Source of the DNA: Nemertoderma westbladi
Taxonomy: Eukaryota > Animalia > Xenacoelomorpha
DNA: 64,000 bases
Assembly (NCBI GenBank): GCA_032718475.1
Contig: JAUCBJ010007513.1
Coordinates: forward strand, 62,001 to 126,000
Direction of reading: 5' to 3'
Part shown: in pieces, positions 7,369-64,000 of the stretch
Layout of the letters: every line of letters starts with the position of its first letter
Numbering within the stretch: position 1 is the first letter of the stretch
Program-made: the position numbers and the translations under genes
Notes under the pieces: model-generated
What the model was told of the DNA's origin: nothing
Database searches by the model: none
What the model saw: the letters and a program-made list of their open reading frames with translations, nothing else

Positions 7369-7379
7369 AGTTTGGGCCC

Positions 7380-11828: not shown

Positions 11829-11895
11829 GACAGAACGGTTGATAGCTCGGCACAGCCTTAGACAGTTAGACGGCTAATCCGAGCTCGTAAGGGGG

Positions 11896-12148
11896 TGTGG
11901 TGATAATATATGGCTCGCCCCACGGATACCCTGGGACGAGGGGGGGGGGGGAGACCTACCGGTGTTGGACAGTCAGTATGTCGGTGTTAGTCAGAGCACT
12001 GCAGTACATATTCTTTTATCTAGGCCACTTGTTACATGCCGTGACCGGTCCCCGGAGGACCCTATTATACATATCTATCTGACAGTATCTGCTATAGACA
12101 AAGGTTTTATTTGTCTGCTGCCTCGCAGCAATAGTAGATACGCCCACA
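11896..12148 (+). repeat. 3' LTR of Mag-like element
   Basis: TG...CA, 253 bp, follows the PPT. Confidence 0.96.
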
Positions 12149-15100
12149 CGTAGGAAGAACATGGCCAAAATATGCACGGGAAATTATAAAGTTCTCGATG
12201 GCAGGTAGAGAATCTTCCCATTTCATCCATTTCTTTAACAATTCTCCCTTAAGCGGATCGTCCCATGAGTGGTTTTCAAGCCACATTTGTTGTACTAAAC
12301 TCCGAGCAATCAATATAGCTGGGCTAATAAATCCCAATGGGTCGAAATAAGTGCTCAGGATACTTAAACAAATCCGTTTGGTCCGAACTGGATTATCTCG
12401 CTGTTTTAACTGAAAAAACAGGATGTCTCTTTCAGTGTCCCACTTCAAGCCTAGCGTCTTGGTTTCAGGAAGATCGTCCTTTATTAAGTCTAGGTCTTTC
12501 GTTCCTCGGTCTTCTACCGGTATGGCTTCCAGAAACTCCCGGGAGTTGCTAGTGAATTTCGTCAGTCGAAATCCACCTCTTTTCAAACACTCTACCGTTC
12601 CTTTCGCGACAGCTATGGCTTCTTCTACTGATGGAAGGGACCTTAAATTGTCGTCCATGTATATATTGCGTTTTATGTTGTCTATCACTTCTTTTGAGAA
12701 GGAGTCTCGGTTGTCATTCGCAGTGGTTCGCACCACGGAGCAGGCGTTGGAAGGGCTTGATATGATTCCAAAAGCCTGGATGGTCATCCAGTACTCTACA
12801 GGTTTCTGATTGAGGTCTCCTTCAGGCCACCACAGAAATCTCAGGCTGTCTCTATCTCTATCCAGCGCCTTGACTTGTAAGAACATTCCTTCTATATCTG
12901 AGGCGAACGCGATGGAATATTGTCTTAATCTTAAAAGTATTCCCAACAAAGATTGGAGTAAGTTGGGTCCTGGTAACAACTCGGAATTGAGGGATTGGCC
13001 CATATATAGGGCGGAGCCATCGAATACGACTCGTACTTCGTGGGGTTTACCGGGTTTGGGAACGTAATGATGTGTTAAGTAATACGTTCTCTCAGTCACT
13101 GGTGTTCCTTCCGGTACTCGCTCCGCGTATCCCTTTGTTATAAATTTCTTCAGCTGAGTTTGGTACATTTCTTTCGCTGAAGCATTAGCTGTAAGGCATC
13201 GATGTAATTGAGCGATTCTTTTCTCTGCCAAGGGTCTGTTATTTATAAATCTAGGTTCTCGTTTTCGAAATGGTAGGCCGATTTCATATCTACCTTGATC
13301 CTTTAAAAAACGTGTAGTTGTTTCCTGGATTTGCTTGGCTCTTTCTTCTTCTATCGATAGAGCCTTATCATATGAATTGGGCTCTACCAGTTCCTGAGTA
13401 AAGAATCGTACGGCTAGTTCGTCCCGAGTTCTAGCGTTGTAGCGCTCTATCTCATCGTTTAGTTCGTCATTGTAAGCGATGGGTTCCGATGGGCGAATCA
13501 GTTGACATAGGTTCACCTGATTTTTCCAAGTGTGGTTTTCTGTAAGTAGGTCGATTGTGTTCTCTTCATCGAAGAGTTGGTAGATGTCGCCATTATCTGA
13601 GGAGTATGGTGTTCCCTCAGTTAGTTCGTCCACCTCACTGCTCTCCACTTCCCAATCGTTTACTTGGTATATTTGTTCTTGTGGCATTCTCTCTTCGAGA
13701 GTCCTGCGGGAAGGGCCAGTAAAGTACCAACCTACTCTAGTTCTTACCGCATAGGTTTGCAGTGGCTGTGGTTGAGCAGGCCGTTTCTCCAATGTTTCGA
13801 GCGCCTCATGCGCGTTTTGGCCGATGAGTATTTGCACTCCAGGATAATCTGTCTGGAATCGAGGTATCTTAAGATGTTGGATGCTCTCATCCTCGTCCCA
13901 ATTATAAAGATCTGCTTGAGTAGTAGCGAAGTTCTTTATAGCCACCATTTTTACCGACCTTATACCTTGTGCTCCTAACTTATCCTGGGGGGTGGACAAC
14001 ACACCTACATAGTAATCTGCCGTTAGGGTAGATTTCCAAACCTGCATAATTCCTGACATATTCAATTTAGTCCGGAATTTGGGTTGTCCAGCAAAGATAT
14101 CTTCGGCTAATTCTTGATCGATGAATGTTCCTGTGCTGCCGGAGTCAAGGAGTGCGTTCACTATGTAACTTTTGTTAGGACCGTGAACTCTTACCTGCAC
14201 TACAGGAAATTCTCTGATTCCTACGTTGGAAGTTGGAGCTTTCCAAGATGGTTGTTTGGCAAAAGTAGTTGGGGGAAACTCATTGTTGGTGTCCTTTTCA
14301 TAAGTAAGTGCTCGATACAATGCGGTATTGATTAGATAACAGGATTCGTTGGCGTCGGAGAATTCGTCAGTATAGAATCCTTCCATCTCAGATTCTTGAT
14401 CAGTGTCGTTTACATCACTGAATTGGACATGTAGTTCGGGCTCACTTACCTGGCTCGGGTTGTCTCGGTCGAACTCACTGTGTAACAAGATGTGATGTTT
14501 CGCGCCACACTTTGCACACTTTACGTCGGAGTAACAGGTTCGCCGTTGGTGTCCTGATCTGAGGCAATTATAGCATAACCGCTTATTCCACAGGACTGTA
14601 CGTCTGTCTACAAGAGATTTCTTTAGAAATTCAGCACACGCACTCAAACGGTGGGGCCAGTCGCACAGCGCACATTTTGGTTTGATGTTACTCACCTTAC
14701 CTTGGGTAACGTTATGCACTCTCATTTTTTCTTCGGGTTTTCTTCGGTGCATTCTGTTAGGAGACTGAGGAGGGGTCTTGGCAGCCTGTTCTCTCCTATC
14801 GTTGTTTCGAGCCTTGTATTTACTTACGTCTTTTGAGGTTTTGTCAACATAGTAAGATCGATCTGTGTCTTTCCCGCTGTCCTCTTCTTGAGAAGCTTGG
14901 CTTTCGCCGTCGTCAGTGTAACACACCGGTGTTACTCTTCTCCTAGAAGCGGGTTTCTCACTTACCTTATTTTCCGATGTTTTCTCTCTGGACTGCTTGA
15001 TGAGTTGTAGTTTTACTTCACCATCTAAGAAGGACATGAGATCAGCCATGGTAGGACTTCGTCGTTGTTGTTCATTCATGTACAACACTTTCTTGTCCCA

Positions 15101-17854
15101 GCGTGTACATACTCCACCCTTTGGTAAAGTAGAGACTACGGCTCCAATAACCATGGAACTCTGATATTCATGCGACTTACCTAACCAGTCCAATTGTCTA
15201 CAGATCTCTTGAATCTCATCGGAAAACTCTATAATCCCGCTACTAAGGAAGTGTCGGGGGGCTACTAATTTTGCATACAAATACTTAGCTATGTTATCTT
15301 TGTTACCATACCTGATGTTTAATGTATCCCATACTTGTCTTAATCTTTCTGGATGTCCAATAAACTTTAACGCCATTAACCTGGGAGGTCCTTCCAAGCA
15401 TTTGATGAGGAACCTAAGTTTCTCTCCGTTAGATAGTACAGAGTTTTGTATGCTATCTTTGTAGTATTCATTGAAAGGTAGCCATTTCATCTCATCTCCA
15501 TTGAATTTGACGATCTCTCCCACTTTAACCGCTTGGCGGGCTTCTGTTCTAGCCATCTGACGCGTAAAGCTTTCTTGGGCCATCGTGTTATTTAATATCG
15601 AATTATCGGTATATAAATTTCTCGGATCATTATCAGGTCTATAGGGAATATCATTAATAACAGGTCTATAATCACCCTTAATAGGGTTTGCTATAGGAGT
15701 TTCTACTTCACTAGCAGTATAGATGCGTGTAGGCTCCACACCTTGCGCATGTAATACTTCAGACCTAACAGGTTGACACAATGTTACAGGGGGTATTGGT
15801 ATGCCTTTTTGTATATTGACTAACTTGTCGCGTTCTAGCGCGATACTTTGCTGCACTTCTTGCAATTCTGCCCTACCTTCCCTTATGGTTCCCTTAAGTT
15901 GGTGGACAGTCTCCTGCATCTGTCCGAGCAGGAGATTCATCCCCCGCCGTCCCTCCTCAACACACTCGACCGCCAAAGCGGGAGTCGCCAACATTGTAGC
16001 GGGCTGACGCGGGACGACGGGAGACAAATCTTTGATTTCTCTCTCTGCTTCCAGGACAGGGATATTCTCATGGACTGTTCTACCGGGTACAGGCAGTGTA
16101 GTACTGTGTAAAGGGAATTTAGAGTTAAGCTCTGGAAGTACAGGGGTCTCTAGCACAGAAGTGACCTTGGGAACGACAGACCCAATTATTTCAGGCTCAT
16201 CAACTATTGTAGGGAGTCTTTTGACCTGAATAATTTGTTCTGTGGGTTCTGTACTGCCTAAGTCTGCGCTAGTTAGTTGTCTTCTAACCGCCGGGGGCAA
16301 ATTAGGCAATTTGTGGCGGTGAGATGTTTTTCTACGCCTGCTTAGACGAGATCTATTTCCTCTGCCTTCAGGATCGGTGGTTTCGCTTTCCTCCGATGAT
16401 GTGTATCCCTGGCGTTTTGGAGTAGATCTTCTCATCATCTGCATTCGACTAGCAGTTAACTGTTTATTTATGTTGTCTTGCGTCTCTTGCAGATTTTCCA
16501 ACTCCAGTTGGGTAGTCTGCTCAGACGCTCTCCGTTCTGCTTCTGCCACTGCCTTTGCCGCCTTTCTTTGTGCTTCTGCTTTTGCCATTGCCACTGCCTC
16601 CTTTCTTTCCGCTTCTGCTTCTGCGATTGCCGCTGCCTCCTTTATTTCCGCTTCTGCTTCTGCGATTGCCGCTGCTTTTCGGTCCTCTATCCGCCTTTTC
16701 TTTACTTCTTCTTCCTGGACTCTAGCGAGGCAAAGTTTTTCATCAAATTCAGCTTGGTTTGCAGCAAACATTTCAGCATCGATTGAGTCCAACACAAGCT
16801 GGGTTCCTTCACTATTAGGGGAAAGTCCAGACAGCCGTCTCCTCAACTCTTCGTCTCCTAGGAATCGCTGATAGTCGGATAGATAAATGTCGATGGCGTC
16901 TCTCGTTCGTGGTCTCTCTGCGGTCTCTTCGCCTTCCACTTGAGAAAGGGTGGCATCGGTTGGTTCTTCATAGGTTAGTCTCTCAGACAGCTGGGATTTC
17001 CACTGGTCCGTTTCTTGTACTTTGAGGCCTACCCACTGGAACCAAGTTTTGACAGCAACCTGCAGCGACGTGTCCTGTCTTCTTTTGGAAGTTTCCTCAA
17101 AAGCTGATAGGATTAGTCGAATGCGTAGGGTTCTTTCGCGTTTTTGATATAGCAGTTCTTCCTGCTCTTGAGGTCCTTGGGGTTGTCGAAACAGTTGTTC
17201 TTCTAATCGCTCTAAGGAGCCGAAGAACCCCTGCACATATCCTGCTGCCGACCTCTTCCAAACAGCTGGATCCATCGTATCTTTAACCACTCCCATCCTG
17301 TGTATATCTTCCCAAGTAGCCTCGGACAGATCTAACGGGAGTCCGGGTCCGGGAAAGTTCCATTGTGACTCGACAATAGACATCAATTCTTCCCTGGCGT
17401 ATCCCGCATAATTATCTTGTGTCGTTCGCTTATTTCTCGCCCAGTCGGCTTGATGTTCCTCCACCGCAATCAATATAGTAGTTAGCACTGCAGCAGGAAG
17501 GGTGAGAAGGGGGTCCGAGTAGGCTTTAGCCGCCATCTGCAATCCGCGTTCGGGGGTCAGCTCGACAGTATCCGAACTACTGGAGCTATCGGATCGCTGG
17601 GAACAAGTTTCTTGACTAGGCTGTTGCTGCTGTGGGACAGCTGCTTCCTGGTTCCGTTTGACTTGGGCCCGAGTGCCGATAATAGACCTACGGTGTTGGA
17701 TTAGCTTAGGGTCTGATACTTCTACTGGAGGGATGACCTTTCTTTCAGTAGGAGGTGAGCTGAACTCCTTTCTTAATCGCTCCACACTCCTATCTGTGTC
17801 ACAGATGGTTGTATCGATTAGACTGTCTGACAGGTTTTGCTGGGTGTCAGACAT
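12149..17854 (-). CDS. BEL/Pao gag-pol of A1 (Gag, zinc knuckles, protease, RT), cut by the gypsy insertion just before RNase H
   Basis: KFNGDEMKWLPF capsid-like region; three knuckles CALCDWPH/CYNCLRSGH/CAKCGAKHH; LLDSGS; RVVFDGS; YMDD; FDPLG. Confidence 0.92.
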
Positions 17855-19189
17855 GTTTAGCTATACAGTTGAATGCTTACTGCTATAGTTACAGTTAAAG
17901 CAAGTCTAGTAATTCAGTATGACCGTTGGCCTAGTACCGGTAATTTATTGCAGTATATTAGAATACCGGTATACACTTATAATATATATAAGTATTGTAA
18001 ACTAGTTTTGTCACAGAGTACCGGTATATAAATTTAGCACAAATATATATAAATATATAATAGGCCTATCGTGAATACCGGTATACAGCTTACACTTATA
18101 GTATATATAAGTATAATTATGAACTAGAATTAATTACAGAATACCGGTATGATTTCAGCTCAAATTTGTAGAAATAAATATAATAAGCCTATGGTAAATA
18201 CCGGTATGTCAATTATTTTAGAATAATTGAATTTCTGAATATTTTAGGGTTACTTGGTTACTTTAACTTACTTTGTTACCGTTATTTAAGCAGTAGTCCA
18301 ACTGATTTTGAGACCTAGTTGTTGTATGGCAGGCCTACTATTTATAAATCGTTTGAGTTGATTTATAATATTTATATACCCGTTTAAAATGGGTTTTGTC
18401 AATATTTGAAATAAATGTTATTATTTCTGGGGGAGTCACTACACAGAAGCTGTGCGCTCTCAGTGAAGTGCTACTTATTTGACACTAAAACAGATAATTC
18501 TAATTTACCTAAGTTACTTAATACTACAAATTACTTACGATACGGATGAGATTAAATCTCTAAGTAAACACAACAAAATATTACGTACGAAATTTTAGGG
18601 TAATTTTACAGGAAGTCTACAAACCAGCCTAACAAAGGGTTAGAATTCTGGTTATTACAACGGACAGGGTACTACGGTATTTGAAATAATAAGTAGTAGT
18701 AAATATATTGCACTGTCCAGAGAGGAAAATACCACCGCCTGACGACCTATAACCGTATCGCTATAGGTACTACGTTATGTATCACGGAGTGTTCCTACCT
18801 AGAAGCTAATTACCGCGGACTACCAGATCCAGCGTGCCTATTAACCACTTTACAACACAAAATATACTGCCTACACACTAATTACCTCGGAAAGCACTGT
18901 ACACTAAACCCTAAATTAGGTACAAGTACTGGTACAACAAATAATCAGTAGTTAAATATACTTGAACAGTTAAAAGAACCACGGCATCTGCTGGAGTGAC
19001 CGAAGCACAAAGTCACCAGTCTTTTCCTACGCCAAGCAGCCCGTGTAGTACCGGGGTTAATTTAACTATAACGGTATGTGTAACAAACACAATTACTGTA
19101 GGAATAAACTTGGGGACATGAATGTTGCGAATAATCGCATAAACTCTGAATAATATATATTACGCTACCCGTACAGAATACTCAAACAA

Positions 19190-19740
19190 AATACAAACCA
19201 AACGCTGGCAGACTACCACCAAGCCTAAATAAACTACAGTATGTGTAGATTCCAAAATGGTTAGTTAGTATGCGTTCTAACATGGTAGTACGACTTATTC
19301 TTTAAGAGGGGATTGACCTTACAGCTATGGCTGCCCCAACTTACTAACTGGCACTCTAACGGACAAACTCTACACACGCAGCAATCTCTTCAGACCTAAT
19401 AATAGCTAGACAACAATCCAGCCTACAAAATATCTGAGTAATAACTATTACGGTACCTGAACAGACCACACAAACAAACACAGGCCAAAACGTTGGCAGA
19501 ATACTGTCAAGCCTAAATAAACTACAGTATGTGCAGATTCCAAAATGGTTAGTTAGTATGCGTTCTAACACGGTAGTACGACTTATTCTTTAAGAGGGGA
19601 TTGACCTTACAGTTATGACTGCCCCAACTTACTAACTGGCACTTTATCAGACAAACTCAACACTCGCCGTAATCTCTCCAAACCCAACAACAATCCGACA
19701 ACAGTCCGGCCTACAATTATCTGAACAATCTGAGCAGACT
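19190..19740. repeat. About 290-bp tandem duplication in the family A 5' leader
   Basis: Block AAGCCTAAATAAACTACAGTATGTG...GCCCCAACTTACTAACTGGCACT occurs twice; also present in A2 at about 50970-51510. Confidence 0.85.
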
Positions 19741-19899
19741 TACACGTCTTCAGCTCAATATTAACTTACATGTAAATAAAACCGACAGAAATAAGTAAAA
19801 TCTCAATAAAAAACCAGGGCTGCAGTCCCTGATTAAATACTAAGACCTACCGGTATACAATAATCAAAATCGAATAATACTAATGTACTTATACTGGAA

Positions 19900-20045
19900 G
19901 TACCGGTTAGGACAGTTGGGCCTACGGACCTACAGAAATACCGGTTCTGACAGTTGGACCTACGGACCTACAGCAGTACCGGTTCTGGCAGTTGGGCCTA
20001 CGGACCTACAGAAGTACCGGTTCAGGTTTACCGGTCGACCGGTAC
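19900..20045. repeat. About 38-bp tandem repeats with ACCGGT cores in the family A leader
   Basis: Unit TACCGGTTCTGRCAGTTGGRCCTACGGACCTACAGMAG repeated 3-4 times; also at about 50655-50800. Confidence 0.85.
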
Positions 20046-20088
20046 TTTCAACTTTATTGCTTACTGCAATAAAGACAATAACTGTTAT

Positions 20089-21326
20089 TGTACGCGCTTT
20101 TGAAGACCTTTAGCAGTTTAACCTGCCAAAATTTATATGTCTTTTGGTTTATAAATAGACTTTAGAAGATGACAAATATTTAATACCAATGAACACAACA
20201 TTAGCAGAAGCCAGCCTAGTGCGCGTCCATTCACCCGCTGGATATACCCGGGAGACTGGATTCTGAGGGCTTAGATTATTATTGCAGTGTAAGCTTACTG
20301 TATTGTATTATTCGATTGATCGTTAATAAATAATTTCTGACTAATATTATTCACTTTCGGGAAATATTAACAGTTCCTTTAGGACGTGGCGCTCTATCTA
20401 AGTAAACAGAGATATGACTTATACTAATCACAACGGTAAGTCGGTAAGGCTTATGATTCACGTATGAGGCGCATTCTTTAGGAAATGCTTAGTTATCAGT
20501 CACAATCATGCACACTACCGGTAACACACAATACTGCTCACTAATTTGCCGACCGTCAATGAATTTTATCATATATAAAGCGAACAGCAACGGACTCATG
20601 TAGGGCTTATCAAATAGCATTAAATTCACTACAAACCACAATAATATAAGTCGCAATCGCTATATATAACCCGTCTCTCTAACCTGTAGTGTATCAAGAA
20701 AATTGGGAAATTTGGGTTCTTTATATATGTTCTCCAAATAATATTCAACCAAAACACAACAGTAAACAGCATTAAGACGGTAGGTTAAGATATGATATGA
20801 CAAGATGTGACAAGATAACAGTTATACGCTCTATAATCTTAAGCCTACTAATGTTTTTTCTAAAGTATGAAAACGAATTGACTCTAGAGCCGGTGTTCCT
20901 GGCCTAGATAGCAACAACACAACGGTATCACTAAAAACAGTAAGACTGAACACTCCTAGTATGATCGGCCGAATATCTACACGTCGACAGAAAAAATCGC
21001 TCTGATTGGCTCAAGCCAAACAAAGAACCATGCGTCCAATGGCTGTTTCCATGCCAGCAACCAGCTGCTAGATGTCGCAATCTGAATCATCAAGGCTAAG
21101 CTGTGTAAAGGTATTTGGTGCATTGCAGGTTTTTTGCCTTACCATGTCCGCCAAAACACGTATATAGCAGAATGACTTTTATGTCCGTTAAAACACCTAT
21201 AACGGTACCTTGCGGGCGAGGGGAATATATATATAGTTATTGAGCCTTTTAGAGTATTCCAGCGCCTAGGGGGGTAACTGGATTGCGAAGCAAAGGGGCC
21301 AGTTATATCCCACAGAAGCTTTTACA
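20089..21326 (-). repeat. 5' LTR of A1
   Basis: 1238 bp, TG...CA, flanked by TSD AAATG. Confidence 0.96.
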
Positions 21327-49335: not shown

Positions 49336-50609
49336 TGTAAAAGCTTCTGTGGGATATAACTGGCCCTTTTGCTTCGCAATCCAGTTTCCCCCCTAGGCGC
49401 TGGAATACTCTAAAAGGCTCTATAACTATATATATATTCCCCTCGCCCGCAAGGTACCGTTATAGGTGTTTTAACGGACATAAAAGTCATTCTGCTATAT
49501 ACGTGTTTTGGCGGACATGGTAAGGCAAAAAACCTGCAATGCACCAAATACCTTTACACAGCTTAGCCTTGATGATTCAGATTACGACATCTAACAGCTG
49601 GTTGCTGACATGGGAACAGCCATTGGACACGTAGTTCTTTGTTTAGCTTAAGCCAATCAGAGCGATTTTTTCTGTCGATGTGGAGATATTCAGCAGATCG
49701 TGCTAGTAGTGTTCAGTCTTACTGTTTTTTCTTGATACTGTTGTGTTGTTGCTATCTAGGCCAGGAACACCGGCTCTAGAGTCAATTCGTTTTCATACTT
49801 TAGAAGAAACATTAGTAGGCTTAAATTATAGAGCGTATAACTGTTATCAATTCATCACATATCTTATCTAATCATATCAACTGATCGCAATTCAGTCTTA
49901 CATTATCGGTTCAATATACATTATTATACTGCTATTTACTATTGTTTGGTTGAATATTATTTGGAGAATATTTATAAAGAACCGAAATTTCCCAATTTTC
50001 TTGATACACTACAGGTTAGAGAGACGGGTTATATATAGCGATTGCGACTTATATTATTGTGGTTTGTAGTGAATTTAATGCTATTTGATAAGCACTACAT
50101 GAATCCGTTGCTGTCTTCTTTATATATGATAAAATTCATTGACGGTCGGCAAATTAGTGAGCAGTATTGTGTGTTACCGGTAGTGTGCATGATTGTGACT
50201 GATAACTAAGCATTTCCTAAAGAATGCGCCTCATACGTGAATCATAAGCCTTACCGACTTACCGTTGTGATTAGTATAAGTCATATCTCTGTTTACCTAG
50301 ATAGAGCGCCACGTCCTAAAGGAACTGTTAATATTTCCCGAAAGTAAATAATATTAGTCAGAAATTATTTATTAACGATCAATCGAATAATACAATACAG
50401 TAAGCTTACACTGCAATAATAATCTAAGCCCTCAGAATCCAGTCTCCCGGGTATATCCAGCGGGTGAATGGACGCGCACTAGGCTGGCTTCTGCTAATGT
50501 TGTGTTTATTGGTATTAAATATTTGTCATCTTCTAAAGTCTATTTATAAACCAAAAGACATATAAATTTTGGCGGGTTAAACTGCTAAAGGTCTTCAAAA
50601 GCGCGTACA
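49336..50609 (+). repeat. 5' LTR of A2
   Basis: 1274 bp, TGTAAAAG...GCGCGTACA; homologous to the A1 LTRs with a divergent patch at about 49848-49945. Confidence 0.95.
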
Positions 50610-52845
50610 ATAACAGTTATTGACTTTATTGCAGTAAGCAATAAAGTTGAAAGTACCGGTCGACCGGTAAACCTGAACCGGTACTTCTGTAGGTCAGTAG
50701 GCCCAACTGCCAGAACCGGTACTGCTGTAGGTCTGTAGGTCCAACTGCCAGAACCGGTACTTCTGTAGGTCCGTAGGCCCAACTGTCCTAACCGGTACTT
50801 CCAGTATAAGTACATTAGTATTATTCGATTTTGATTATTGTATACCGGTAGGTCTCGATATTAAATCGGGGACGCCTGGTTTTTATTGAGATTTTACTTA
50901 GGTCTATTTCTGTCAGTTTTATTTCCTAGTAAGTTAATATTGAGCTGAAGACGTGTAAGTCTGCTCAGATTGTTCGGATAACTGTAGGCCGGACTGTTGT
51001 CGGATTGTTGTTGGGTTTGGAGAGATTACGGCGTGTGTAGAGTTTGTCCGATAGAGTGCCAGTTAGTAAGTTGGGGCAGCCATAGCTGTAAGGTCAATCC
51101 CCTCTTAAAGAATAAGTCGTACTACCGTGTTAGAACGCATACTAACTAACCATTTTGGAATCTGCACATACTGTAGTTTATTTAGGCTTGACAGTATTCT
51201 GCCAGCGTTTTGGTCTGTGTTTGTTTGTGTGGTCTGTTCAGGTACCGTAATAGTTATTACTCAGATATTTTGTAGGCTGGATTGTTGTCTAGCTATTATT
51301 AGGTCTGAAGATATTGCTGCGTGTGTAGAGTTTGTCTGATAAAGTGCCAGTTAGTAAGTTGGGGCAGCCATAGCTGTAAGGTCAATCCCCTCTTAAAGAA
51401 TAAGTCGTACTACCGTGTTAGAACGCATACTAACTAACCATTTTGGAATCTGCACATACAGTAGTTTATTTAGGCTTGGTGGTAGTCTGCCAGCGTTTTG
51501 GTTTGTATTTTGTTTGAGTATTCTGTACGGGTAGCGTAATATTTATTATTCAGAGTTTATGCGATTATTCGCAACATTCATGTCCCCAAGTTTATTCCTA
51601 CAGTAATTGTGTTTGTTATACATACCGTTATAGTTAAATTAACCCCGGTACTACACGGGCTGCTTGGCGTAGGACAAGACTGGTGATTTTGTGCACCGGT
51701 CACTCCAGCAGATGCCGTGGTTCTTTTAACTGTTCAAGTATATTTAACTACTGATTATTTGTTGTACCAGTACTTGTACCTAATTTAGGGTTTAGTGTAC
51801 AGTGCTTTCCGAGGTAATTAGTGTGTAGGCAGTATATTTGTGTTGTAAAGTAGTTAATAGGCACGCTGGATCTGGTAGTCCGCGGTAATTAACTTCTAGG
51901 TAGGAACACTCCGTGATACATAACGTAGTACCTATAGCAATACGGTTATAGGTCGTCAGGCGGTGGTATTTTCCTATCTGGACAGTGCAATATATTTACT
52001 ACTACTTATTATTTCAAATACCGTAGTACCCTGTCCGTTGTAATAACCAGAATTCTAACCCTTTGTTAGGCTGGTTTGTAGACTTCCTGTAAAATTACCC
52101 TAAAATTTCGTACGTTATATTTTTGTTGTGTTTAATTAGAGATTTAATCTCACCCGTATCGTAAGTAATTTGTAGTATTAAGTAACTTAGGTAAATTAGA
52201 ATTATCTGTTTTAGTGTCCCATAGGTAGCACTTCACTGAGATCGCACAGCTTCTGTGTAGTGACTCCCCCAGAAATAATAACATTTATTTCAAATATTGA
52301 CAAAACCCCTTTTAAACGGGTATATATATATTATAAATCAACTCAAACGATTTATAAATAGTAGGCCTGCCATACAACAACTAGGTCTCAATATCAGTTG
52401 GACTACTGCTTAAATAACGGTAATAAAGTAAGTTAAAGTAACTAAGTAACCCTAAAAATATTCAGAAATTCAATTATTCTAAAATAATTGACATACCGGT
52501 ATTTACCATAGGCTTATTATATTTATTTCTATAAATTTGAGCTGAAATCATACCGGTACTCTGTAATTAATTCTAGTCCATAATTATACTTATATATACT
52601 ATCAGTGTAAGCTGTATACCGGTATTCACGATAGGCCTATTATATATTTATATATATTTGTGCTAAAATTATATACCGGTACTCTGTGACAAACCTAGTT
52701 TACAATACTTATATATACTATAAGTGTATACCGGTATTCTAATATACTGCAATAAATTACCGGTACTAGGCCAACGGGCATACTGAATTACTAGACTTGC
52801 TTTAACTGTAACTATAGCAGTAAGCATTCAACTGTATAGCTAAAC

Positions 52846-55800
52846 ATGTCTGACACCCAGCAAAACCTGTCAGACAGTCTAATCGATACAACCATCTGTG
52901 ACACAGATAGGAGTGTGGAGCGATTAAGAAAGGAGTTCAGCTCACCTCCTACTGAAAGAAAGGTCATCCCTCCAGTAGTAGTATCAGACCCTAAGCTAAT
53001 CCAACACCGTAGGTCTATCATCGGCACTCGGGCCCAAGTCAAACGGAACCAGGAAGCAGCTGTCCCACAGCAGCAACAGCCTAGTCAAGAAACTTGTTCC
53101 CAGCGATCCGATAGCTCCAGTAATTCGGATACTGTCGAGCTGACCCCCGAACGCGGATTGCAGATGGCGGCTAAAGCCTACTCGGACCCCCTTCTCACCC
53201 TTCCTGCCGCAGTGCTAACTACTATATTGATTGCGGTGGAGGAACATCAAGCCGATTGGGCGAGAAGTAAACGAGCGACCCAAGATAATTATGCGGGATA
53301 CGCCAGGGAAGAATTGATGTCTATTGTCGAGTCACAATGGAACTTTCCCGGACCCGGACTCCCGTTAGATTTGTCCGAAGCTACTTGGGAAGATATACAC
53401 AGGATGGGAGTGACTAAAGATACAATGGATCCAGCTGTTTGGAAGAGGTCGGCAGCAGGATATGTGCAGGGATTCTTCGGCTCCTTGGAGCGATCAGAAG
53501 AACAACTGTTTCGACAACCCCAAGGACCTCAAGAGCAGGAAGAGCTGCTATATCAAGTACGCGAAAGAACCCTACGCATTAGACTAATCCTATCAGCCTT
53601 TGAGGAAACTTCCAAAAGAAGACAGGACACGTCGCTGCAGGTTGCTGTCAAAACTTGGTTCCAGCGGGTAGGTCTCAAAGTACAAGAAACGGACCAGTGG
53701 AAATCCCAGCTGTCTGAGAGACTAACCTATGAAGAACCAACCGATGCCACCCTTTCTCAAGTGGAAGGCGAAGAGACCGCAGAGAGACCACGAACGAGAG
53801 ACGCCATCGACATATATCTGTCCGACTATCAGCGATTCCTAGGAGACGAAGAGTTGAGGAGACGGCTGTCTGGACTTTCCCCTAATAGTGAAGGAACCCA
53901 GCGTGTGTTAGACTCAATCGATGCTGAAATGTTAGCTGCTAACCAAGCTGAGTTTGATGAAAAACTCCGCCTCACTAGAGTCCAAGAAGAACTAGTAAAG
54001 AAAAGACGGATAGAGGACCGAAAGGCAGCTGAAGTAACAGCGGCAATGGCAGAAGTAGAAGCAGAAAGAAAGGCAGCGGCGGCAGAAGCAGAAGCAGAAA
54101 GAAAGGTAACAGCGGCAATGGCAGAAGTAGAAGCAGAAAGAAAAGTAACAGCGGCAATGGCAGAAGTAGAAGCAGAAAGAAATATTCCCTATTCCCTATA
54201 GACCTGATAATGATCCGAGAAATTTATATACCGATAATTCGATATTAAATAACACGATGGCCCAAGAAAGCTTTTCGCGTCAGATGGCTAGAACAGAAGC
54301 CCGCCAAGCGGTCAAAGTGGGAGAGATCGTCAAATTCAATGGAGATGAGATGAAATGGTTACCTTTCAACGAATATTACAAAGATAGCATACAAAACTCT
54401 GTACTATCTAACGGAGAGAAACTTAGGTTCCTCATCAAGTGCTTGGAAGGACCTCCCAGGTTAATGGCGTTAAAGTTTATTGGACATCCAGAAGGATTAA
54501 GACAAGTATGGGATACATTAAACATCAGGTATGGTAACAAGGATAACATAGCTAAGTATTTGTATGCAAAATTAGTAGCCCCCCGACACTTCCTTAGTAG
54601 CGGGATTATAGAGTTTTCCGATGAAATTCAGGAGATCTGTAGACAATTGGACTGGTTAGGTAAGTCTCATGAATATCAGAATTCAATGGTTATTGGAGCC
54701 GTAGTCTCTACTTTACCAAAGGGTGGAGTATGTACACGCTGGGACAAGAAAGTGTTGTACATGAATGAATAACAACGACGAAGTCCTACCATGGCTGATC
54801 TCATGTCCTTCTTAGATGGTGAAGTAAAACTACAACTCATCAAGCAGTCCAGAGAGAAAACATCGGAAAATAAGGTAAGTGAGAAACCCGCTTCTAGGAG
54901 AAGAGTAACACCGGTGTGTTACACTGATGATGGCGAAAGCCAGGCTTCTCAAGAAGAGGACAGCGGGAAAGACACAGATCGATCTTACTATGTTGACAAA
55001 ACCTCAAAAGATGTAAGTAAATACAAGGCTCGAAACAATGATAGGAGAGAACAGGTTGCCAAGACCCCTCCTCAGTCTCCTAACAGAATGCACCGAAGAA
55101 AACCCGAAGAAAAAACGAGAGTGCATCAAGTTACCCAAGGTAAAGTGAGTAACATAAAACCTAACTGTGCGCTGTGCGACGGGACCCACCGTTTGAGTGC
55201 GTGTGCTGAATTTCTAAAGAAATCCCTTGTAGACAGACGTGCAGTCGTATGGGATAAGCGGTTATGCTATAATTGCCTCAGACCAGGACACCAACGGCGA
55301 ACCTGTTACTCCGACATAAAGTGTGCAAAGTGTGGCGCGAAACATCACATCTTGTTACACAGTGAGTTCGAACGAGACAAACAGAGTCAGGTAAGTGAGC
55401 CCGAACTACATGTCCAATTCAGTGATGTAAATGACACTGACCAGGAGTCTGAGATGGAAGGATTTTATACTGACGAATTCTCCGACGCCAACGAATCCTG
55501 TTATCTAATCAATACCGCAGTGTATCGAGCACTTACTTATGAAAAGGACACTAACAATGAGTTTCCCCCAACTACTTTTGCCAAACAACCATCTTGGAAA
55601 GCTCCAACTTCCAACGTAGGAATCAGAGAATTTCCTGTAGTGCAGGTAAGAGTTCACGGTCCTAACAAAAGTTACATAGTGAACGACTCCTTGACTCCGG
55701 CAGCACAGGAACATTCATCGATCAAGAATTAGCCGAAGATATCTTTGCTGGACAACCCAAATTCCGGACTAAATTGAATATGTCAGGAATTATGCAGGTT

Positions 55801-58800
55801 TGGAAATCTACCCTAACGGCAGATTACTATGTAGGTGTGTTGTCCACCCCCCAGGATAAGTTAGGAGCACAAGGTATAAGGTCGGTAAAAATGGTGGCTA
55901 TAAAGAACTTCGCTACTACTCAAGCAGACCTTTATAATTGGGACGAGGATGAGAGCATCCAACATCTTAAGATACCTCGATTCCAGACAGATTATCCTGG
56001 AGTGCAAATACTCATCGGCCAAAACGCGCATGAGGCGCTCGAAACATTGGAGAAACGGCCTGCTCAACCACAGCCACTGCAAACCTATGCGGTAAGAACT
56101 AGAGTAGGTTGGTACTTTACTGGCCCTTCCCGCAGGACTCTCGAAGAGAGAATGCCACAAGAACAAACATACCAAGTAAACGATTGGGAAGTGGAGAGCA
56201 GTGAGGTGGACGAACTAACTGAGGGAACACCATACTCCTCAGATAATGACGACATCTACCAACTCTTCGATGAAGAGAACACAATCGACCTACTTACAGA
56301 AAACCAAACTTGGAAAAATCAGGTGAACCTATGTCAACTGATTCGCCCATCGGAACCCATCGCTTACAATGACGAACTAAACGATGAGATAGAGCGCTAC
56401 AACGCTAGAACTCGGGACGAACTAGCCGTACGATTCTTTACTCAAGAACTGGTAGAGCCTAATTCATATGATAAGGCCCTATCGATAGAAGAAGAAAGAG
56501 CCAAGCAAATCCAGGAAACAACTACACGTTTTTTAAAGGACCAAGGTAGATATGAAATCGGCCTACCATTTCGAAAACGAGAACCTAGATTTATAAATAA
56601 CAGACCCTTGGCAGAGAAAATAATCGCTCAATTACATCGACGCCTTACGGCTAATGCTTCAGCTAAAGAAATGTACCAAACTCAGCTGAAGAAATTTATA
56701 ACAAAGGGATACGCGGAGCGAGTACCGGAAGGAACACCAGTGACTGAGAGAACGTATTACTTAACACATCATTACGTTCCCAAACCCGGTAAACCCCACG
56801 AAGTACGAGTCGTATTCGATGGCTCCGCCCTATATATGGGCCAATCCCTCAATTCCGAGTTGTTACCAGGACCCAACTTACTCCAATCTTTGTTGGGAAT
56901 ACTTTTAAGATTAAGACAATATTCCATCGCGTTCGCCTCAGATATAGAAGGAATGTTCTTACAAGTCAAGGCGCTGGATAGAGATAGAGACAGCCTGAGA
57001 TTTCTGTGGTGGCCTGAAGGAGACCTCAATCAGAAACCGGTAGAGTACTGGATGACCATCCAGGCTTTTGGAATCATATCAAGCCCTTCCAACGCCTGCT
57101 CCGTGGTGCGAACCACTGCGAATGACAACTGAGACTCCTTCTCAAAAGAAGTGATAGACAACATAAAACGCAATATATACATGGACGACAATTTAAGGTC
57201 CCTTCCATCAGTAGAAGAAGCCATAGCTGTCGCGAAAGGAACGGTAGAGTGTTTGAAAAGAGGTGGATTTCGACTGACGAAATTCACTAGCAACTCCCGT
57301 GAGTTTCTGGAAGCCATACCGGTAGAAGACCGAGGAACGAAAGACCTAGACTTAATAAAGGACGATCTTCCTGAAACCAAGACGCTAGGCTTGAAGTGGG
57401 ACACTGAAAGATACATCCTGTTTTTTCAGTTAAAACAGCGAGATAATCCAGTTCAGACCAAACGGATTTGTTTAAGTATCCTGAGCACTTATTTCGACCC
57501 ATTGGGATTTATTAGCCCAGTTATATTTATTGCTCGGAGTTTAGTACAACAAATGTGGCTTGAAAACCACTCATGGGACGATCCGCTTAAGGGAGAATTG
57601 TTAAAGAAATGGATGAAATGGGAAGATTCTCTACCTGCCATCGAGAACTTTATAATTTCCCGTGCATATTTTGGCCATGTTCTTCCTACGTATTCTTATC
57701 AACTCCATGTGTTTGGAGACGCCAGCGACATGGGAATAGGTATAGTAGCATATCTGCGAGTCGAAACCCCGGATGGAATCAAAGTCGCCTTGGTTACCTC
57801 TAAGGCATTGATTAACAACAAGTTAAAGGTTCCTCGAGCGGAGTTAAAGGCGGCTATATACGCTACAGCCATCGGCCGGAACGTAACGGAACAAATCGAC
57901 TATCCACTGGAGAAAACGGTTTATTGGACCGACGCTTTACTCGTGTTGGAGTATCTAACCAATGAAGTCTGTCAGTTCAGCGTTTTTGTTACTAACAGAG
58001 TAGCTATTATTCTTAGTCGCACAAAGATAGATCAATGGAGACATTGCCCTGGTACGATTAATCCAGCCGATATCGCCTCCAGGGGAGCAACTCCACAGGA
58101 ACTGATAGATACTCCAGATTGGTTGGGTGGACCCGACTTCCTGAGCAAGGAAGAGGATGAATGGCCTCCTCACCTTACTACGGCAGAGATTAGACAAGCC
58201 AAGGGAGTGGAGACAGTCAAACCTAAAACCTGGGCGAGTAAATCGAAGTTATTTAAACCGACTATCGATCTATCTGTATTACACACTTCCGGGAATGATG
58301 CTTCGGATCCACAATCCCTCAACACAAATAAGTCTGTTGTGGAAATTAGAGATAGAGATTGGAAATCTGGAATACCAGACGTCTCGCAAGGAATCTCACC
58401 CATGCTGCAGAGAGCAATGCATCATTACAGTTCCTGGAATCGGCTCTGTAAAGCCGTCACATATTTAAGACGATGTTTTCATCATCACTACTCCAGGACG
58501 AAGACCACTAGTGATAACGCTCCATTGACATCTGCACAAGTTCATGTTATTAAAAATTTACCCAAATATAAGACATCTGACCGTTTTCTAAAGGAGAAAA
58601 TTAGTCACCAGGAGCATGAAGAAACCAATAAGCAGATACTGAGACTCCTGCAATGCTATGAGGATTCCGAAAAGTATTTCCTGTTGTTGAGAAATCCGCA
58701 GATGCGCTTAAGGGATCGATTCTCGAGCACAATGATAGATGGGCTAATACGTGTTGGAGGAAGACTCACCAATGCGCCCTTATCCTTTGACACCAAATTC

Positions 58801-60075
58801 CCCATACTTATTAGAAATCTTGAAGTACAAATCAAGATGATTGTAGATGTTCACAGTAAACTTTATCATGCTGGTAGAGAACGAATTCTTAGCGAAATTC
58901 GAACTCGCTATTATTTTGATAAACCCCGTAGAGCTCTGAACCAAGTTCTTAGGAACTGCATACCCTGTAGGAAAGCATTCAGTAGGCCTTTAACACAGCG
59001 AGAGGCAGAATTACCTAGGGAACGAGTAAGCTTCTATGAACCACCTTTTACTAATACTGGTGTAGATTTATTTGGCCCTATTGAAGTATATCGTGCTAGG
59101 ACTATAGTCAAGAGATGATGTGTCATCTTCGTGTGCATGACTTGTAGAGCCATCCATCTCGATATGGTGAACGATCTATCTACCAACAGCTTCGTCTTAA
59201 GTTTACGACGACAGATCGCTCGCTTCGGGACGAGTAATACCATGAGATCGGATAAGGGAACGAACTTCATTGGTGCCAACAACGAAATACAGGCTTACGT
59301 GAAGGACTGGAACCAAAGACAGGTGGACGACCAGCTAAGGATAACAGCGTCTAGCTGGACCTTCAATGCCGCCGGCGCCCCTTGGTGGGGAGGAAGTTGG
59401 GAGAGATTAATTCGAAGTGTCAAAACCGCATTTCACTTTATAGTGCCATGCCGCGCGTATCTCACCGACGAACTTTTGCGGACATTAATGGAGGAAATCG
59501 CTGCCTATCTCAACGAGAGACCGCTTATGCCAGTCTCATCGAGTCCCGATTCCCTGGAAGCGCTAACACCCGCGCACTTCCTACTGAAGAAACCTGTAGC
59601 CATGCTCCCACGATCGGAGATTGCCGACGGAGACGAATACTGCCGTCGAACTTGGCAACTTATGCAGTTGCTATCCCGTCGTTTCGCTGACCATTTCAAG
59701 AAACATTATCTGCCCACGCTACAACTTCGAACTAAGTGGTTTGCGCAGCAAGAAAACGTCAGCGCCGGAGATATGGTGCTTATTGTAGATCCAGACCTTG
59801 GCATACGGTGATCTGACAAACGGTGGCAGACAGGTCGTATCATCGAGACCCACATCTCGGACGATGGTTTAGTACGCTCGGTAGAACTCATCGTCATGCG
59901 GCGTAACTTCAAGAAGCCAGGCATAATCTTTGAGACGCAACAACTCAATCGCCCAGTTGGTCGTTTATGTTTACTGGAAAGAGACAGAGAACTCTCCGGA
60001 AACTATGGAAGGCAAGACACTCTTCCCACGACCACCTCCCTAATTCCTCAAACATCTAGGGACTCCCCAACGTGA
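52846..60075 (+). pseudogene. BEL/Pao gag-pol of A2 including RNase H and integrase, multiply disrupted
   Basis: About 0.9-kb gag deletion near 54180; stops at 54770, 57130, 59116 and 59809; 1-bp deletion in the protease near 55685. Motifs YMDD, FGDAS, NPADIASRG, HSKLYH..CIPC, GVDLFGP, SDKGTNF, WERLI. Confidence 0.93.
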
Positions 60076-61699: not shown

Positions 61700-64000
61700 A
61701 TGACGGAGTTGATAGAAGATGATCTTGGTATTAGGGAGCGATATACTCTACCTTTACAAGCATTTGTGGATAGCTTAATACGCGGTGAAGCCGATCCAAC
61801 CATTACGGAGGACGATGGTCGTTATATCGAACCGCCGATGTCCCAAGAGCAACTTGCGCGTGAATTGGACTATCGAAAATTCACCACTCGCTATACGAAT
61901 CGTAATGGTACGTATATGGACTTCTTAACGACCGGCCATCCTATCGATTTACATGATACGGACGATGTAGATACAGAGAGGGAAATGGTTCTATTTAAAT
62001 ATCATACCCAGCGGAGTCGTAACGATAAACCGAGAATAGATCACGAAAATTCTATTCGTAATAGACTGGAAAGAGAAAACGTTGAAGAACCGGATAAACG
62101 CATCGACTTCAACGAATACCTAGAATTTTTGAGAGAAACCTATCTCAACATCGCTAGTCAGCAGAACTTAGAGACTCGATATCCTCAAGGTATACATCAC
62201 GACCCTGTGGTAGAACTCAAACGGCTCTATTTCACTATGATGTATCTTACCGCCGATCGTCCACTACCTGTTATCCCGGATAGTTTTGAACAAATGGAAG
62301 AATACTGCAAAACTGGAGAACGATCACCCGCGTTTCCTCTACAGGACGTACGTCTTTGGTATTATTGTGACGAATGCCCTAGACCCAACCAACAAACTGA
62401 AAGACATAAACATCCGCGGAGACGTTGCGCTAAACACAGCTTTACGCGTTACACTTACGGGAGTTTCGAGCGAAACCTGTTCGACATACCACCTACGATC
62501 GCTCGTCTTAAACGATCACTGAATAAACCCATGATCAGAGTTCCGGAATACTCGGTCAGGCCTCCTCATTCCCTAGTGAGACCTCAAACTCTTGATCCTA
62601 ACAGTATCACTGATCCTCCCGAACTATATTCCCTGTTCAAAGACTTAGTGTTACCCGAACAATTAATCGGTGGTGCTCCGGTAGTGGGTTCGTTAGACAT
62701 CCGCCCATCCTACTTAGCCGGATTGGGACGCGGGCAGCTAATATCGCCCTTTGATCCTTACAATCGTCCAGGATTAAACCCGATGCAACCCGCCACGGAA
62801 GTCGAGGAGAGCGTTATAAGAAACGCTTTAGACGCCATTCGACAGAAAATCGGAAAGGGAACACAAGATTGTTTAGAGAAACGTAAATTACAACAACAAG
62901 TCCAATCGGTGAAGGAGTTAGCCTTGCCACAGTTCGATAGAGAAATCCAAAACCTCGAGGAAGACATCGAGCTTGGACGCACGTATTCTCTACAAGAATT
63001 TTTAGATGAACGCTTACAGAGACAAGCGGAAGAAAATCTACTCGAAGAGAAACACACGAAACTGGAAGAGAGAGAGGAAGCCGCTTTAGCCCAACCGGAA
63101 GCTCAAATCCTCATGACGGACCTCTACTCTAAAACCGTTCGTCATCCCTCGATGATTCCACATTTCGGGGACAAGCTCTTCGCGACGATACAACCTCAAC
63201 CGGTTGATATCAGTACAGGATCGCAAAATCTTATCGCTGACGCCCCTATGTTACAGCGTCCGCCGATCGAGGCCGCTCGTGTTGACGGTATACTCGTTGA
63301 ACCTCCGGACAATCGAGCGGATCTTGTCCGTCGTATGGTACACGATGTCAACATACGCGCTAGACCTTTACAGAACTCGTTTTATGGGATTAAAGACCAC
63401 CCTTATTACGTTAATCTGACTCAATATTATATGGTAAAACCAGAAGACCCGACACATAATTTAAAGTTTCTACCACTAATAAATCCTCTAGACATTGTCG
63501 AACTCGAACAATTGCAGAAACATCTGGATCAGTTAGTAAAGGTAAACTCATTCAGAAAACCATATAACATTTCTCGAATCGAGAAAGATATAGAACCTCC
63601 TTATAATCTCGATGGATTTATTAAAACTCGATTAGTCCATTGGAATCTAGATGTATTATTTGAAGAAGAGAAAATACAAAGATATGGAAATGTGGAGACG
63701 TATACCACTCGGCACATGAAGTATAGTGATCTCCCTGACACTAACCAATGCGCCACCTTGTGGCATCCAGTAGGGATGACCCTAGAGAACGCCACCAAGG
63801 AGTGGAATGAAACTCTTAATGTTATTGAGATGTATGGAGTTGTCACCTACGATAATGAAGGTAGCGTTCCGGTCGGAGAACTAGGAACTACGCGCATGAT
63901 TCACATACGCGGATTAGCTGGTTCTACCCACGTGTTTACTCGAGCGTGTTCCGACGTGATTGATTATTCCTTTGAAACTCTCACCGAAACACAAAAGAAT
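61700..64000 (+). CDS. Large accessory ORF of A2, at least 767 aa, open at window end; putative Zn-binding motif, coiled coil and start of a DEDD-like 3'-5' exonuclease
   Basis: Hand translation from ATG 61700 (MTELIEDDLGIRERY...) has no stop to base 64000; it is absent from the track because no stop lies in the window. Confidence 0.88.
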   Translation, partial: MTELIEDDLGIRERYTLPLQAFVDSLIRGEADPTITEDDGRYIEPPMSQEQLARELDYRKFTTRYTNRNGTYMDFLTTGHPIDLHDTDDVDTEREMVLFKYHTQRSRNDKPRIDHENSIRNRLERENVEEPDKRIDFNEYLEFLRETYLNIASQQNLETRYPQGIHHDPVVELKRLYFTMMYLTADRPLPVIPDSFEQMEEYCKTGERSPAFPLQDVRLWYYCDECPRPNQQTERHKHPRRRCAKHSFTRYTYGSFERNLFDIPPTIARLKRSLNKPMIRVPEYSVRPPHSLVRPQTLDPNSITDPPELYSLFKDLVLPEQLIGGAPVVGSLDIRPSYLAGLGRGQLISPFDPYNRPGLNPMQPATEVEESVIRNALDAIRQKIGKGTQDCLEKRKLQQQVQSVKELALPQFDREIQNLEEDIELGRTYSLQEFLDERLQRQAEENLLEEKHTKLEEREEAALAQPEAQILMTDLYSKTVRHPSMIPHFGDKLFATIQPQPVDISTGSQNLIADAPMLQRPPIEAARVDGILVEPPDNRADLVRRMVHDVNIRARPLQNSFYGIKDHPYYVNLTQYYMVKPEDPTHNLKFLPLINPLDIVELEQLQKHLDQLVKVNSFRKPYNISRIEKDIEPPYNLDGFIKTRLVHWNLDVLFEEEKIQRYGNVETYTTRHMKYSDLPDTNQCATLWHPVGMTLENATKEWNETLNVIEMYGVVTYDNEGSVPVGELGTTRMIHIRGLAGSTHVFTRACSDVIDYSFETLTETQKN

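What the first reader, a model, noticed from the sequence alone, without database searches (positions are those of the whole stretch)
63795..64000. Candidate new system: retrotransposon-encoded DEDD 3'-5' exonuclease plus zinc knuckles
Seen: the accessory ORF ends in view with KEWNETLNVIEMYGVVTYDNEGSVPVGELGTTRMIHIRGLAGSTHVF; D718-x-E720 is at 63851-63859. Known: WRN/RNase D-type DEDDy domains (EXD1, Egalitarian, Nibbler/MUT-7) start with a helix, hh-x-h-D-x-E-G, a Gly loop, an LIQI-like strand and a VY/VF strand, and several act in small-RNA or transposon RNA biology. I recall an exonuclease-like domain being noted in a nematode BEL/Pao element, so novelty needs a literature check. Inference: family A carries a nuclease and RNA-binding module that could counter small-RNA silencing, process a non-tRNA primer or proofread cDNA. 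Only Exo I is inside the window.
Basis: partly seen in the sequence, partly recalled or inferred. Interest (0 to 1): 0.85.

Follow-up and report, generated by a model that had tools for sequence, protein, structure and literature searches.

The report
Retrotransposon extra gene, likely RNA-trimming nuclease
A large BEL/Pao jumping gene carries an extra, strongly conserved gene whose last 54 visible residues likely begin a 3'-5' exonuclease, and a second, broken copy ends in zinc knuckles that likely belong to the same protein; the rest of the predicted active site lies just past the window and is untested, and exonuclease genes are already known in rotifer LTR elements.

Summary
The motif is there: D718-N-E720 at 63851-63859, near the open end of a 767-codon accessory ORF of a BEL/Pao element at least 17 kb long. 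The stretch is under strong purifying selection (31 synonymous, 3 non-synonymous variants).

Exonuclease identity is suggested, not shown. A WRN-like DEDDy profile aligns in register at 3-5 bits (0-6 of 1000 shuffles; rank 1-4 of about 250 window loci), but true fragments score 11-29 bits. Pfam, homolog, PDB and structure searches gave no significant match. Exo II and III would lie about 20-310 bases past the window, and no continuation could be fetched. Odds of a DEDDy-type domain: about 0.6.

The knuckles come from a second, internally deleted copy (4912-5961, minus), so their link to the motif is inferred. This family and a second BEL family both lack a tRNA primer site and carry a Tf1-like LTR-complementary leader. 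The second has knuckles but no visible exonuclease, which weakens a required role in priming.

DEDDy third genes are published for rotifer LTR elements. The scan earlier noted Rrp6-like third genes in Gypsy elements and self-priming BEL/Pao on other DNA. Verdict: provisional new variant, not a new system.

The parts
63836..63862 (+). Exo I-like motif GVVTYDNEG; D718 at 63851-63853, E720 at 63857-63859
   Evidence: Sequence. No amino-acid-changing variant at these codons among 34 listed. In register with the WRN-like profile's D-x-E.
63776..64000 (+). Visible N-terminal part of the candidate DEDDy domain (residues 693-767): amphipathic segment, Exo I-like strand, G-x-L-G loop with MIHI strand (63875-63907), THVF strand (63923-63937), start of a putative helix; cut by the window's end 49 residues after D718
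   Evidence: by-eye comparison with WRN as printed. The fold is inferred. Single-sequence AlphaFold models were low confidence and drew the first segment as a strand.
61700..64000 (+). Accessory (third) ORF of BEL/Pao family A, copy 2: 767 codons, open at the 3' end, no transmembrane segment, no homolog found
   Evidence: highest 19-residue hydropathy 1.21.
52840..59811 (+). gag-pol of family A copy 2, broken by stops and frameshifts
   Evidence: ORF pieces; Pfam Peptidase_A17, Integrase_H2C2 and DUF5641.
49336..50609 (+). 5' LTR of family A copy 2 (1274 bp, TG...CA)
   Evidence: Self-BLAST, 93% identical to the copy 1 3' LTR; ends checked.
50610..50620 (+). 11-base leader where a tRNA primer site would be; no TGG; perfectly complementary to LTR positions 502-512
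   Evidence: 2 of 2000 shuffles reach 11 bases. The same pairing is present in copy 1.
49837..49847 (+). LTR-internal complement of the leader (candidate self-primer)
   Evidence: Whether the transcript starts here was not tested.
4912..5961 (-). C-terminal remnant of the accessory region in family A copy 1: three Cys/His knuckles (5841-5785 atypical, 5748-5704, 5685-5644 canonical CCHC), then a basic tail ending about 80 bases before the 3' LTR
   Evidence: Pfam zf-CCHC_3 E 0.029-0.12, below cut-off. ESM Atlas neighbours at 0.79-0.86 are mostly multi-knuckle proteins, a lead only. Same frame as the N-terminal piece across the deletion, with a stop codon at 5962-5964 between them.
5986..6970 (-). 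Copy 1 counterpart of 61058-62074 (spacer and first ~125 codons of the accessory ORF); the internal deletion junction is at 5986|5985
   Evidence: blastn 93.7% over 1019 columns and tblastn; junction printed.
3596..21326 (-). Family A copy 1: LTRs 21326-20089 and 4833-3596 (5 differences in 1238 bases), 5-base target duplication, polypurine tract, two internal deletions, nested Gypsy element at 7096-12148

Best explanation
The element's extra gene is a conserved open reading frame that likely encodes a WRN/EXD-type (DEDDy) 3'-5' exonuclease domain, likely followed in the same protein by the zinc-knuckle array seen in the second copy, and this protein would grip RNA with the knuckles and trim its 3' end. 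Shown: the frame, its strong constraint, the D-x-E motif, the knuckles in copy 1, and the absence of a tRNA primer site with an LTR-complementary leader. Inferred: the fold (about 0.6); one polypeptide from 61700 to the knuckles (about 0.75); catalytic activity; an RNA substrate, by analogy with TbRND. The substrate I think most likely is the element's own RNA inside its particle (the self-primer end or the genomic 3' end); host small RNAs are the next candidate.
For: Purifying selection, 31 synonymous of 34 variants, none changing D718 or E720. A profile of 39 bacterial WRN-like domains aligns D-x-E and the two following strands in register at 3.2-5.0 bits, 0-6 of 1000 shuffles, rank 1-4 of 246-258 window loci. 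By eye against human WRN as printed: 12 identities in 54 residues with one 2-residue gap, including V-V-x-x-D-x-E, G-x-L-G, the I of the second strand, the F of the third and L-x-E of the next helix. Precedent: DEDDy ORF3 in rotifer LTR elements (PMC5408684) and exonuclease plus four CCHC fingers in TbRND (PMC7797062). No transmembrane segment, so not env-like. The two pieces are in the same frame across copy 1's deletion.
Against: True DEDDy fragments cut to the same length score 11-29 bits (medians 16-29) against profiles built without their own subfamily, while the query scores -1.0 to -1.7 there. NrnC, RNase D, Pol I, pooled and DEDDh profiles do no better than shuffles. hhalign scores do not beat shuffles (24-55 of 60 equal or higher; probability under 1%). 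Pfam, NCBIfam and PDB sequence searches give no match. Both AlphaFold models draw a strand where DEDDy domains have a helix, though at mean pLDDT 37 and 49. Tyr before and Asn after the first Asp are not seen in the bacterial rows printed. Most residues of the stretch are invariant, so the constraint does not single out D718 and E720. Family B shows knuckles and self-complementarity without such a domain.
Confidence: 0.45

Rival explanations
1. The resemblance is chance. Residues 693-767 belong to a conserved beta-rich domain of another kind in the accessory protein, and D718/E720 are not an Exo I motif.
For: No significant library, homolog or structure match. Only one of five DEDD subfamily profiles responds, far below true fragments. 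Other window loci score as high. The short pattern also occurs in two unrelated ORFs.
Against: The match runs across three strands and the next helix with one gap. The long pattern is expected 0.057 times per shuffled window. It falls in the place where rotifer elements carry DEDDy genes (PMC5408684).
Confidence: 0.35
2. The domain has a DEDDy fold but is a dead nuclease that only binds RNA, as described for Maelstrom and EXD1, and helps package or transport the element's RNA together with the knuckles.
For: Divergence from all tested active families. PMC5408684 notes that Maelstrom and EXD1 are inactive DEDD derivatives that keep RNA binding. One earlier scan note reports a dead Rrp6-like copy in an LTR element (e1-7470661, unchecked).
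Against: Both Exo I acids are kept and show no amino-acid change among the variants listed.
Confidence: 0.13
3. The domain is an active exonuclease aimed at host small RNAs (piRNA or siRNA 3' ends), that is, an anti-silencing factor. This is a substrate variant of the best explanation and is counted inside its 0.45.
For: Relatives such as MUT-7 act in silencing (PMC5408684). The family is covered in all 30 bins by thousands of contigs in three DNA runs of organism A from two studies, which suggests abundance, though the tool warns that depth is no copy number.
Against: In rotifers DEDDy-bearing families still draw small RNAs and show no clear link to copy number (PMC5408684). No small-RNA data were available here.
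Confidence: 0.15
4. The domain proofreads or trims cDNA during reverse transcription.
For: The best-responding profile is WRN-like. DEDDy enzymes can act on single-stranded DNA (PMC5408684), and Dada transposons are thought to use theirs on DNA ends (PMC3706591).
Against: The domain is in a separate ORF about 1.9 kb after pol, not fused to RT, and the Pol I-type profile does not respond.
Confidence: 0.05

Closest known systems
DEDDy ORF3 of bdelloid rotifer LTR retrotransposons Juno and Vesta, and of Athena/Terminon elements (Rodriguez et al. 2017, PMC5408684; abstract to discussion read, figures not held)
   Same: A separate ORF between pol and the 3' LTR with a DEDDy-type exonuclease, no transmembrane segment, function untested.
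   Different: The host here is BEL/Pao. The ORF is at least 767 codons with about 690 residues of unknown sequence before the motif and a probable knuckle array after it. Only Exo I is seen. Sequence kinship to the rotifer ORFs could not be tested.
TbRND of Trypanosoma brucei (PDB 7C42/7C45; PMC7797062, passages read)
   Same: A DEDD exonuclease followed by several CCHC fingers that bind the RNA substrate; this is the model for the proposed mechanism.
   Different: A cellular mitochondrial enzyme that trims guide RNAs, with four regular fingers. No sequence match to the query was found, and the query's domain and knuckles are not shown to be one chain.
WRN exonuclease / EXD2 / MUT-7 group and their bacterial relatives (Pfam PF01612)
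   Same: Order and spacing of Exo I, Gly loop, second and third strands; 12 of 54 identities to human WRN by eye.
   Different: No Pfam match; profile score 3-5 bits; Exo II and III not seen.
Tf1/sushi-group self-priming LTR retrotransposons (PMC6317226, passages read)
   Same: No tRNA site; the first 11 bases after the 5' LTR pair with a site inside the LTR.
   Different: BEL/Pao instead of Ty3/gypsy; transcript start not mapped. Tf1 cuts its primer with RNase H and needs no extra nuclease (recalled, not from a call).
Dada DNA transposons with a DEDDy domain (PMC3706591, passages read)
   Same: A transposon-borne DEDDy exonuclease and zinc-finger motifs.
   Different: A DNA transposon with the domain inserted in the transposase.

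Membership tests
BEL/Pao LTR retrotransposons | Pao-type gag-pol domains | tested here: met
   Peptidase_A17 E 4e-36, DUF5641 3e-08, DUF1759 3e-12, Integrase_H2C2 3e-07.
BEL/Pao LTR retrotransposons | TG...CA LTRs, target-site duplication, polypurine tract | tested here: met
   Copy 1: 1238-base LTRs with 5 differences, 5-base duplication, purine tract.
DEDDy 3'-5' exonucleases (PF01612) | Exo I D-x-E at the end of a hydrophobic strand | tested here: met
   V-V-T-Y-D718-N-E720; placed on the profile's D-x-E by hmmsearch and by hhalign for three of five profiles.
DEDDy 3'-5' exonucleases (PF01612) | Significant match to a family profile | tested here: inconclusive
   No Pfam hit at E up to 10; 3-5 bits to a WRN-like profile against 11-29 for true fragments. 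Under a third of the domain is in view and no eukaryotic profile could be built.
DEDDy 3'-5' exonucleases (PF01612) | Exo II aspartate | not testable with these tools
   Expected 57-76 residues after D718; the window ends after 49. No genome or extending locus available.
DEDDy 3'-5' exonucleases (PF01612) | Exo III Y-x-x-x-D | not testable with these tools
   Expected 127-152 residues after D718. The copy 1 remnant has its only Y-x-x-x-D after the knuckles, so Exo III would lie in the unseen interval.
DEDDy 3'-5' exonucleases (PF01612) | RNase H-like (DnaQ) fold | tested here: inconclusive
   Single-sequence models at mean pLDDT 37 and 49; best Foldseek E 0.44 and best VIA Z 4.9 (rmsd 4.2, 60 aligned) to unrelated beta-meanders.
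DEDDy 3'-5' exonucleases (PF01612) | Metal-dependent 3'-5' exonuclease activity | not testable with these tools
   Needs an assay.
DEDDh exonucleases (PF00929) | Profile match over Exo I and the following strand | tested here: not met
   Profile of 36 bacterial domains: -0.7 to -0.9 bits, 316-518 of 1000 shuffles as high, out of register.
TbRND-like exonuclease-knuckle architecture | Exonuclease and CCHC array in one polypeptide | tested here: inconclusive
   The pieces come from two copies; same frame across the deletion but a stop codon precedes the remnant.
Tf1-like self-priming elements | Leader complementary to an LTR-internal site, no tRNA site | tested here: met
   11 bases, 2 of 2000 shuffles; the Gypsy control has TGG and no complement, 1605 of 2000.
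Tf1-like self-priming elements | The complementary site is the 5' end of the transcript | not tested
   No stranded RNA reads; all runs laid were contigs.
env-like ORF3 | Signal peptide or transmembrane anchor | tested here: not met
   Highest 19-residue hydropathy 1.21 and 0.83 in the two visible pieces; the unseen middle is untested.

The most novel reading that the evidence does not exclude
A self-priming BEL/Pao lineage of 17 kb or more carries a TbRND-like accessory enzyme (active DEDDy exonuclease plus CCHC array, over 1,200 residues) that matures the 3' end of the element's own RNA primer: a retroelement that has replaced the host tRNA and brought its own primer-trimming nuclease.
Probability: 0.12. 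Interest if true: 0.75.

Novelty: new variant of a known kind. Interest (0 to 1): 0.4.

Why it matters
What exonuclease third genes do for retroelements has been open since the rotifer report, which states that activity is not demonstrated (PMC5408684). A conserved example in BEL/Pao would extend the arrangement to another superfamily. Because this family also has a defined self-priming signature and a sister family without the visible domain, primer trimming, RNA end processing and anti-silencing become separable tests. If the next 400 bases lack Exo II and III, what remains is an unannotated but highly constrained accessory protein of modest interest.

Tried and rejected
Getting past 64000: no whole genome is held. 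No relative in viral contigs or metagenome contigs. Laid contigs run over the end, but the tables show at most 2 further bases. No scan note nearby or by sequence. Self-BLAST and profile scans find no other piece of the missing middle in the window.

Homologs: three word searches, near, longer and shorter lengths; phmmer of residues 480-767 against 1.84 billion proteins, 0 hits; PDB sequences; phages; ESM Atlas, one row at 0.75, recognition below threshold. Libraries: Pfam, NCBIfam none for the motif. PHROGs gave an 'exonuclease' family (phrog_1674) at E 0.13 behind two unnamed families at E 0.012 and 0.059; I could not find its members, so it is not counted as support.

Structure: two single-sequence models and two fold searches were uninformative; no DEDD protein appears among the rows shown. 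I did not fold the query on an alignment of known exonucleases because that would be circular. Changing the entropy weighting did not materially change the WRN-like result. The WRN-like alignment found nothing in viral contigs.

No RNA holder was listed; X5 is only guessed to be RNA, so nothing is claimed on expression. No tRNA gene or Rfam family in the window.

Literature: searches listed no paper on an exonuclease in a BEL/Pao element (I opened the hits of 31 and 63, which were unrelated passages; the others were judged from the listing). One search listed no BEL/Pao self-priming paper among five rows, two of them opened. No supplements were read; the rotifer and Dada alignments (figure and supplement) could bear on how divergent transposon-borne DEDDy domains are.

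Full report
Setting. The window is a nest of animal-type retroelements. Family A is a BEL/Pao element (Pfam Peptidase_A17, DUF1759, DUF5641) present twice. Copy 2 runs on the plus strand from its 5' LTR (49336-50609) through a broken gag-pol (52840-59811), a spacer of about 1.9 kb and an accessory ORF from 61700 that is still open at 64000. Copy 1 runs on the minus strand (21326-3596), has near-identical LTRs (5 differences in 1238), a 5-base target duplication, a nested Gypsy element and two internal deletions. One deletion removes the accessory ORF after about codon 125 and rejoins near a remnant with three Cys/His knuckles (4912-5961). Adding the visible parts gives at least 17,055 bases for the element.

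The observation. The quoted peptide and D718-N-E720 at 63851-63859 are exact. The knuckles are not near the finding: they come from copy 1. The N-terminal piece and the remnant are in the same frame across the deletion, with a stop codon at 5962-5964 between them, so one polypeptide is plausible but not shown.

The frame is real and constrained. Public contigs from four runs of four studies laid on 63790-63975 show 34 variants at 4% or more; 31 are synonymous, and the three others are two Val-Ile changes and one Ser-Tyr change seen in a single contig. The shifted frames give 3 and 2 synonymous of 34. Omega is about 0.04. The start of the ORF looks looser: 5 synonymous and 10 non-synonymous codon differences in 104 codons between the two window copies, though copy 1 is decayed; of the 14 ORF variants among the 40 rows shown (586 not shown), 10 are synonymous. 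The constraint fits an enzyme core but any folded domain would show it.

Is it a DEDD domain? Standard searches say nothing: no Pfam or NCBIfam match, no homolog by three word searches or by phmmer against 1.84 billion proteins, no PDB sequence. I therefore built profiles from fetched bacterial domains. With 71 domains in four DEDDy subgroups, only the WRN-like subgroup responded (2.8 bits, 0 of 300 shuffles). Widened to 39 sequences it gave 3.2-5.0 bits, 0-6 of 1000 shuffles and rank 1-4 among 246-258 loci of the window's six frames, with D718 and E720 on the profile's Exo I. True fragments of equal length score 11-29 bits against profiles lacking their own subgroup, while the query scores below zero there. 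hhalign does not beat shuffles. A DEDDh profile of 36 domains does not respond. By eye against human WRN as printed, the last 54 residues align with one 2-residue gap and 12 identities spread over Exo I, the Gly loop, both following strands and the next helix. I also recall that the Egalitarian/EXD1 group has D-x-E-G and the same spacing; that is memory, not a test. A spaced pattern written after the fact is unique to this site and expected 0.057 times per shuffled window. Because the stretch was chosen for its look, the corrected significance is about 0.05-0.1. With the precedent for such genes at this position I put a DEDDy-type fold at about 0.6. Two single-sequence AlphaFold models were low confidence, drew the segment before Exo I as a strand, and matched nothing specific.

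What is missing. In 21 real domains the Exo II Asp lies 57-76 residues and the Exo III Asp 127-152 residues after the first Asp; the window ends 49 residues after D718. No genome, locus or read table gave the continuation. The copy 1 remnant has no Y-x-x-x-D before its knuckles, so the rest of the active site would fall in the unseen interval.

The primer question. Family A has no TGG after the 5' LTR. Its first 11 leader bases pair perfectly with LTR positions 502-512 in all three LTRs (2 of 2000 shuffles). A second BEL family in the window (B, 43681-31170, minus; 29-37% identical in pol) also lacks TGG and has a 9-base pairing (7 of 2000), while the nested Gypsy has TGG and none (1605 of 2000). 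This is the signature described for Tf1/sushi elements (PMC6317226, passages). I found it before looking at the scan's notes, which report the same in other genomes (unchecked). Family B also has three knuckles before its 3' LTR, two of which align with those of A (E 4e-4 within that region), but no exonuclease-like stretch in the one copy seen, which may itself be deleted. So the knuckle gene goes with both self-complementary families and the exonuclease-like part with only one. A required role in priming is therefore less likely; a helper role remains open.

Mechanism. I commit to a TbRND-like reading: the knuckles hold RNA and a DEDDy domain trims its 3' end, most likely on the element's own RNA in the particle. 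In TbRND a DEDD domain is followed by four CCHC fingers that bind the substrate (PMC7797062, passages). Every step after the motif is inferred. Rivals: chance resemblance (0.35), a dead RNA-binding fold (0.13), cDNA proofreading (0.05), and small-RNA counter-silencing as an alternative substrate (0.15, counted within the best reading).

Comparison and novelty. DEDDy ORF3s occur in rotifer Juno and Vesta LTR elements and in Terminons, with activity undemonstrated (PMC5408684, abstract to discussion; repeated in passages of PMC5718144 and PMC6431247). Dada DNA transposons carry DEDDy domains (PMC3706591, passages). The scan has unchecked notes on Rrp6-like third genes in Gypsy elements of another genome; the RNase D-type profile does not fit this query. 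Seven searches listed no BEL/Pao exonuclease paper, but the library lacks most subscription journals and a nematode case is recalled. The finding is thus at best a new variant: BEL/Pao host, very long ORF, probable knuckle fusion, self-priming context.

Noticed in passing
window 50610-50620 with 49837-49847 (+); 20088-20078 (-): Tf1-like self-priming signature in BEL/Pao family A; the 11-base leader is itself an odd palindrome.
   Followed up: partly
window 43140-43132 with 43318-43310 (-): Second BEL/Pao family (B) also lacks a tRNA site and has a 9-base leader complementary to its LTR (7 of 2000 shuffles).
   Followed up: partly
window 32392-32682 (-): Family B carries a triple zinc-knuckle frame before its 3' LTR, related to that of family A, after a Gly/Arg/Glu-rich stretch and a 36-base tandem array at 33712-34180.
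   Followed up: partly
window 30186-31364 (-), with 28881-30107, 27404-28822 and 25676-26881 (-): Ulp1-type protease frame (Pfam Peptidase_C48, E 3e-05) upstream of what reads as a non-LTR element (coiled-coil ORF, endonuclease-like and RT-like frames, judged by eye); family B sits in its start.
   Followed up: no
window 62360-62446 (+): Cys/His cluster (C-x2-C ... H ... C-x2-H) in the unknown N-terminal part of the accessory ORF; no Pfam match.
   Followed up: partly
window 61640-61705 (+): A TATA-like hexamer about 40 bases before the accessory ATG and acceptor-like CAG trinucleotides just before it; an internal promoter or a spliced message are both possible.
   Followed up: no
window 7096-12148 (+): Gypsy element with an open 1222-codon pol frame and a TGG primer site nested in family A copy 1.
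   Followed up: partly
window 50675-50801 and 51031-51554 (+): 38-base and 288-base tandem repeats in the 2.2-kb leader of family A, present in both copies.
   Followed up: no
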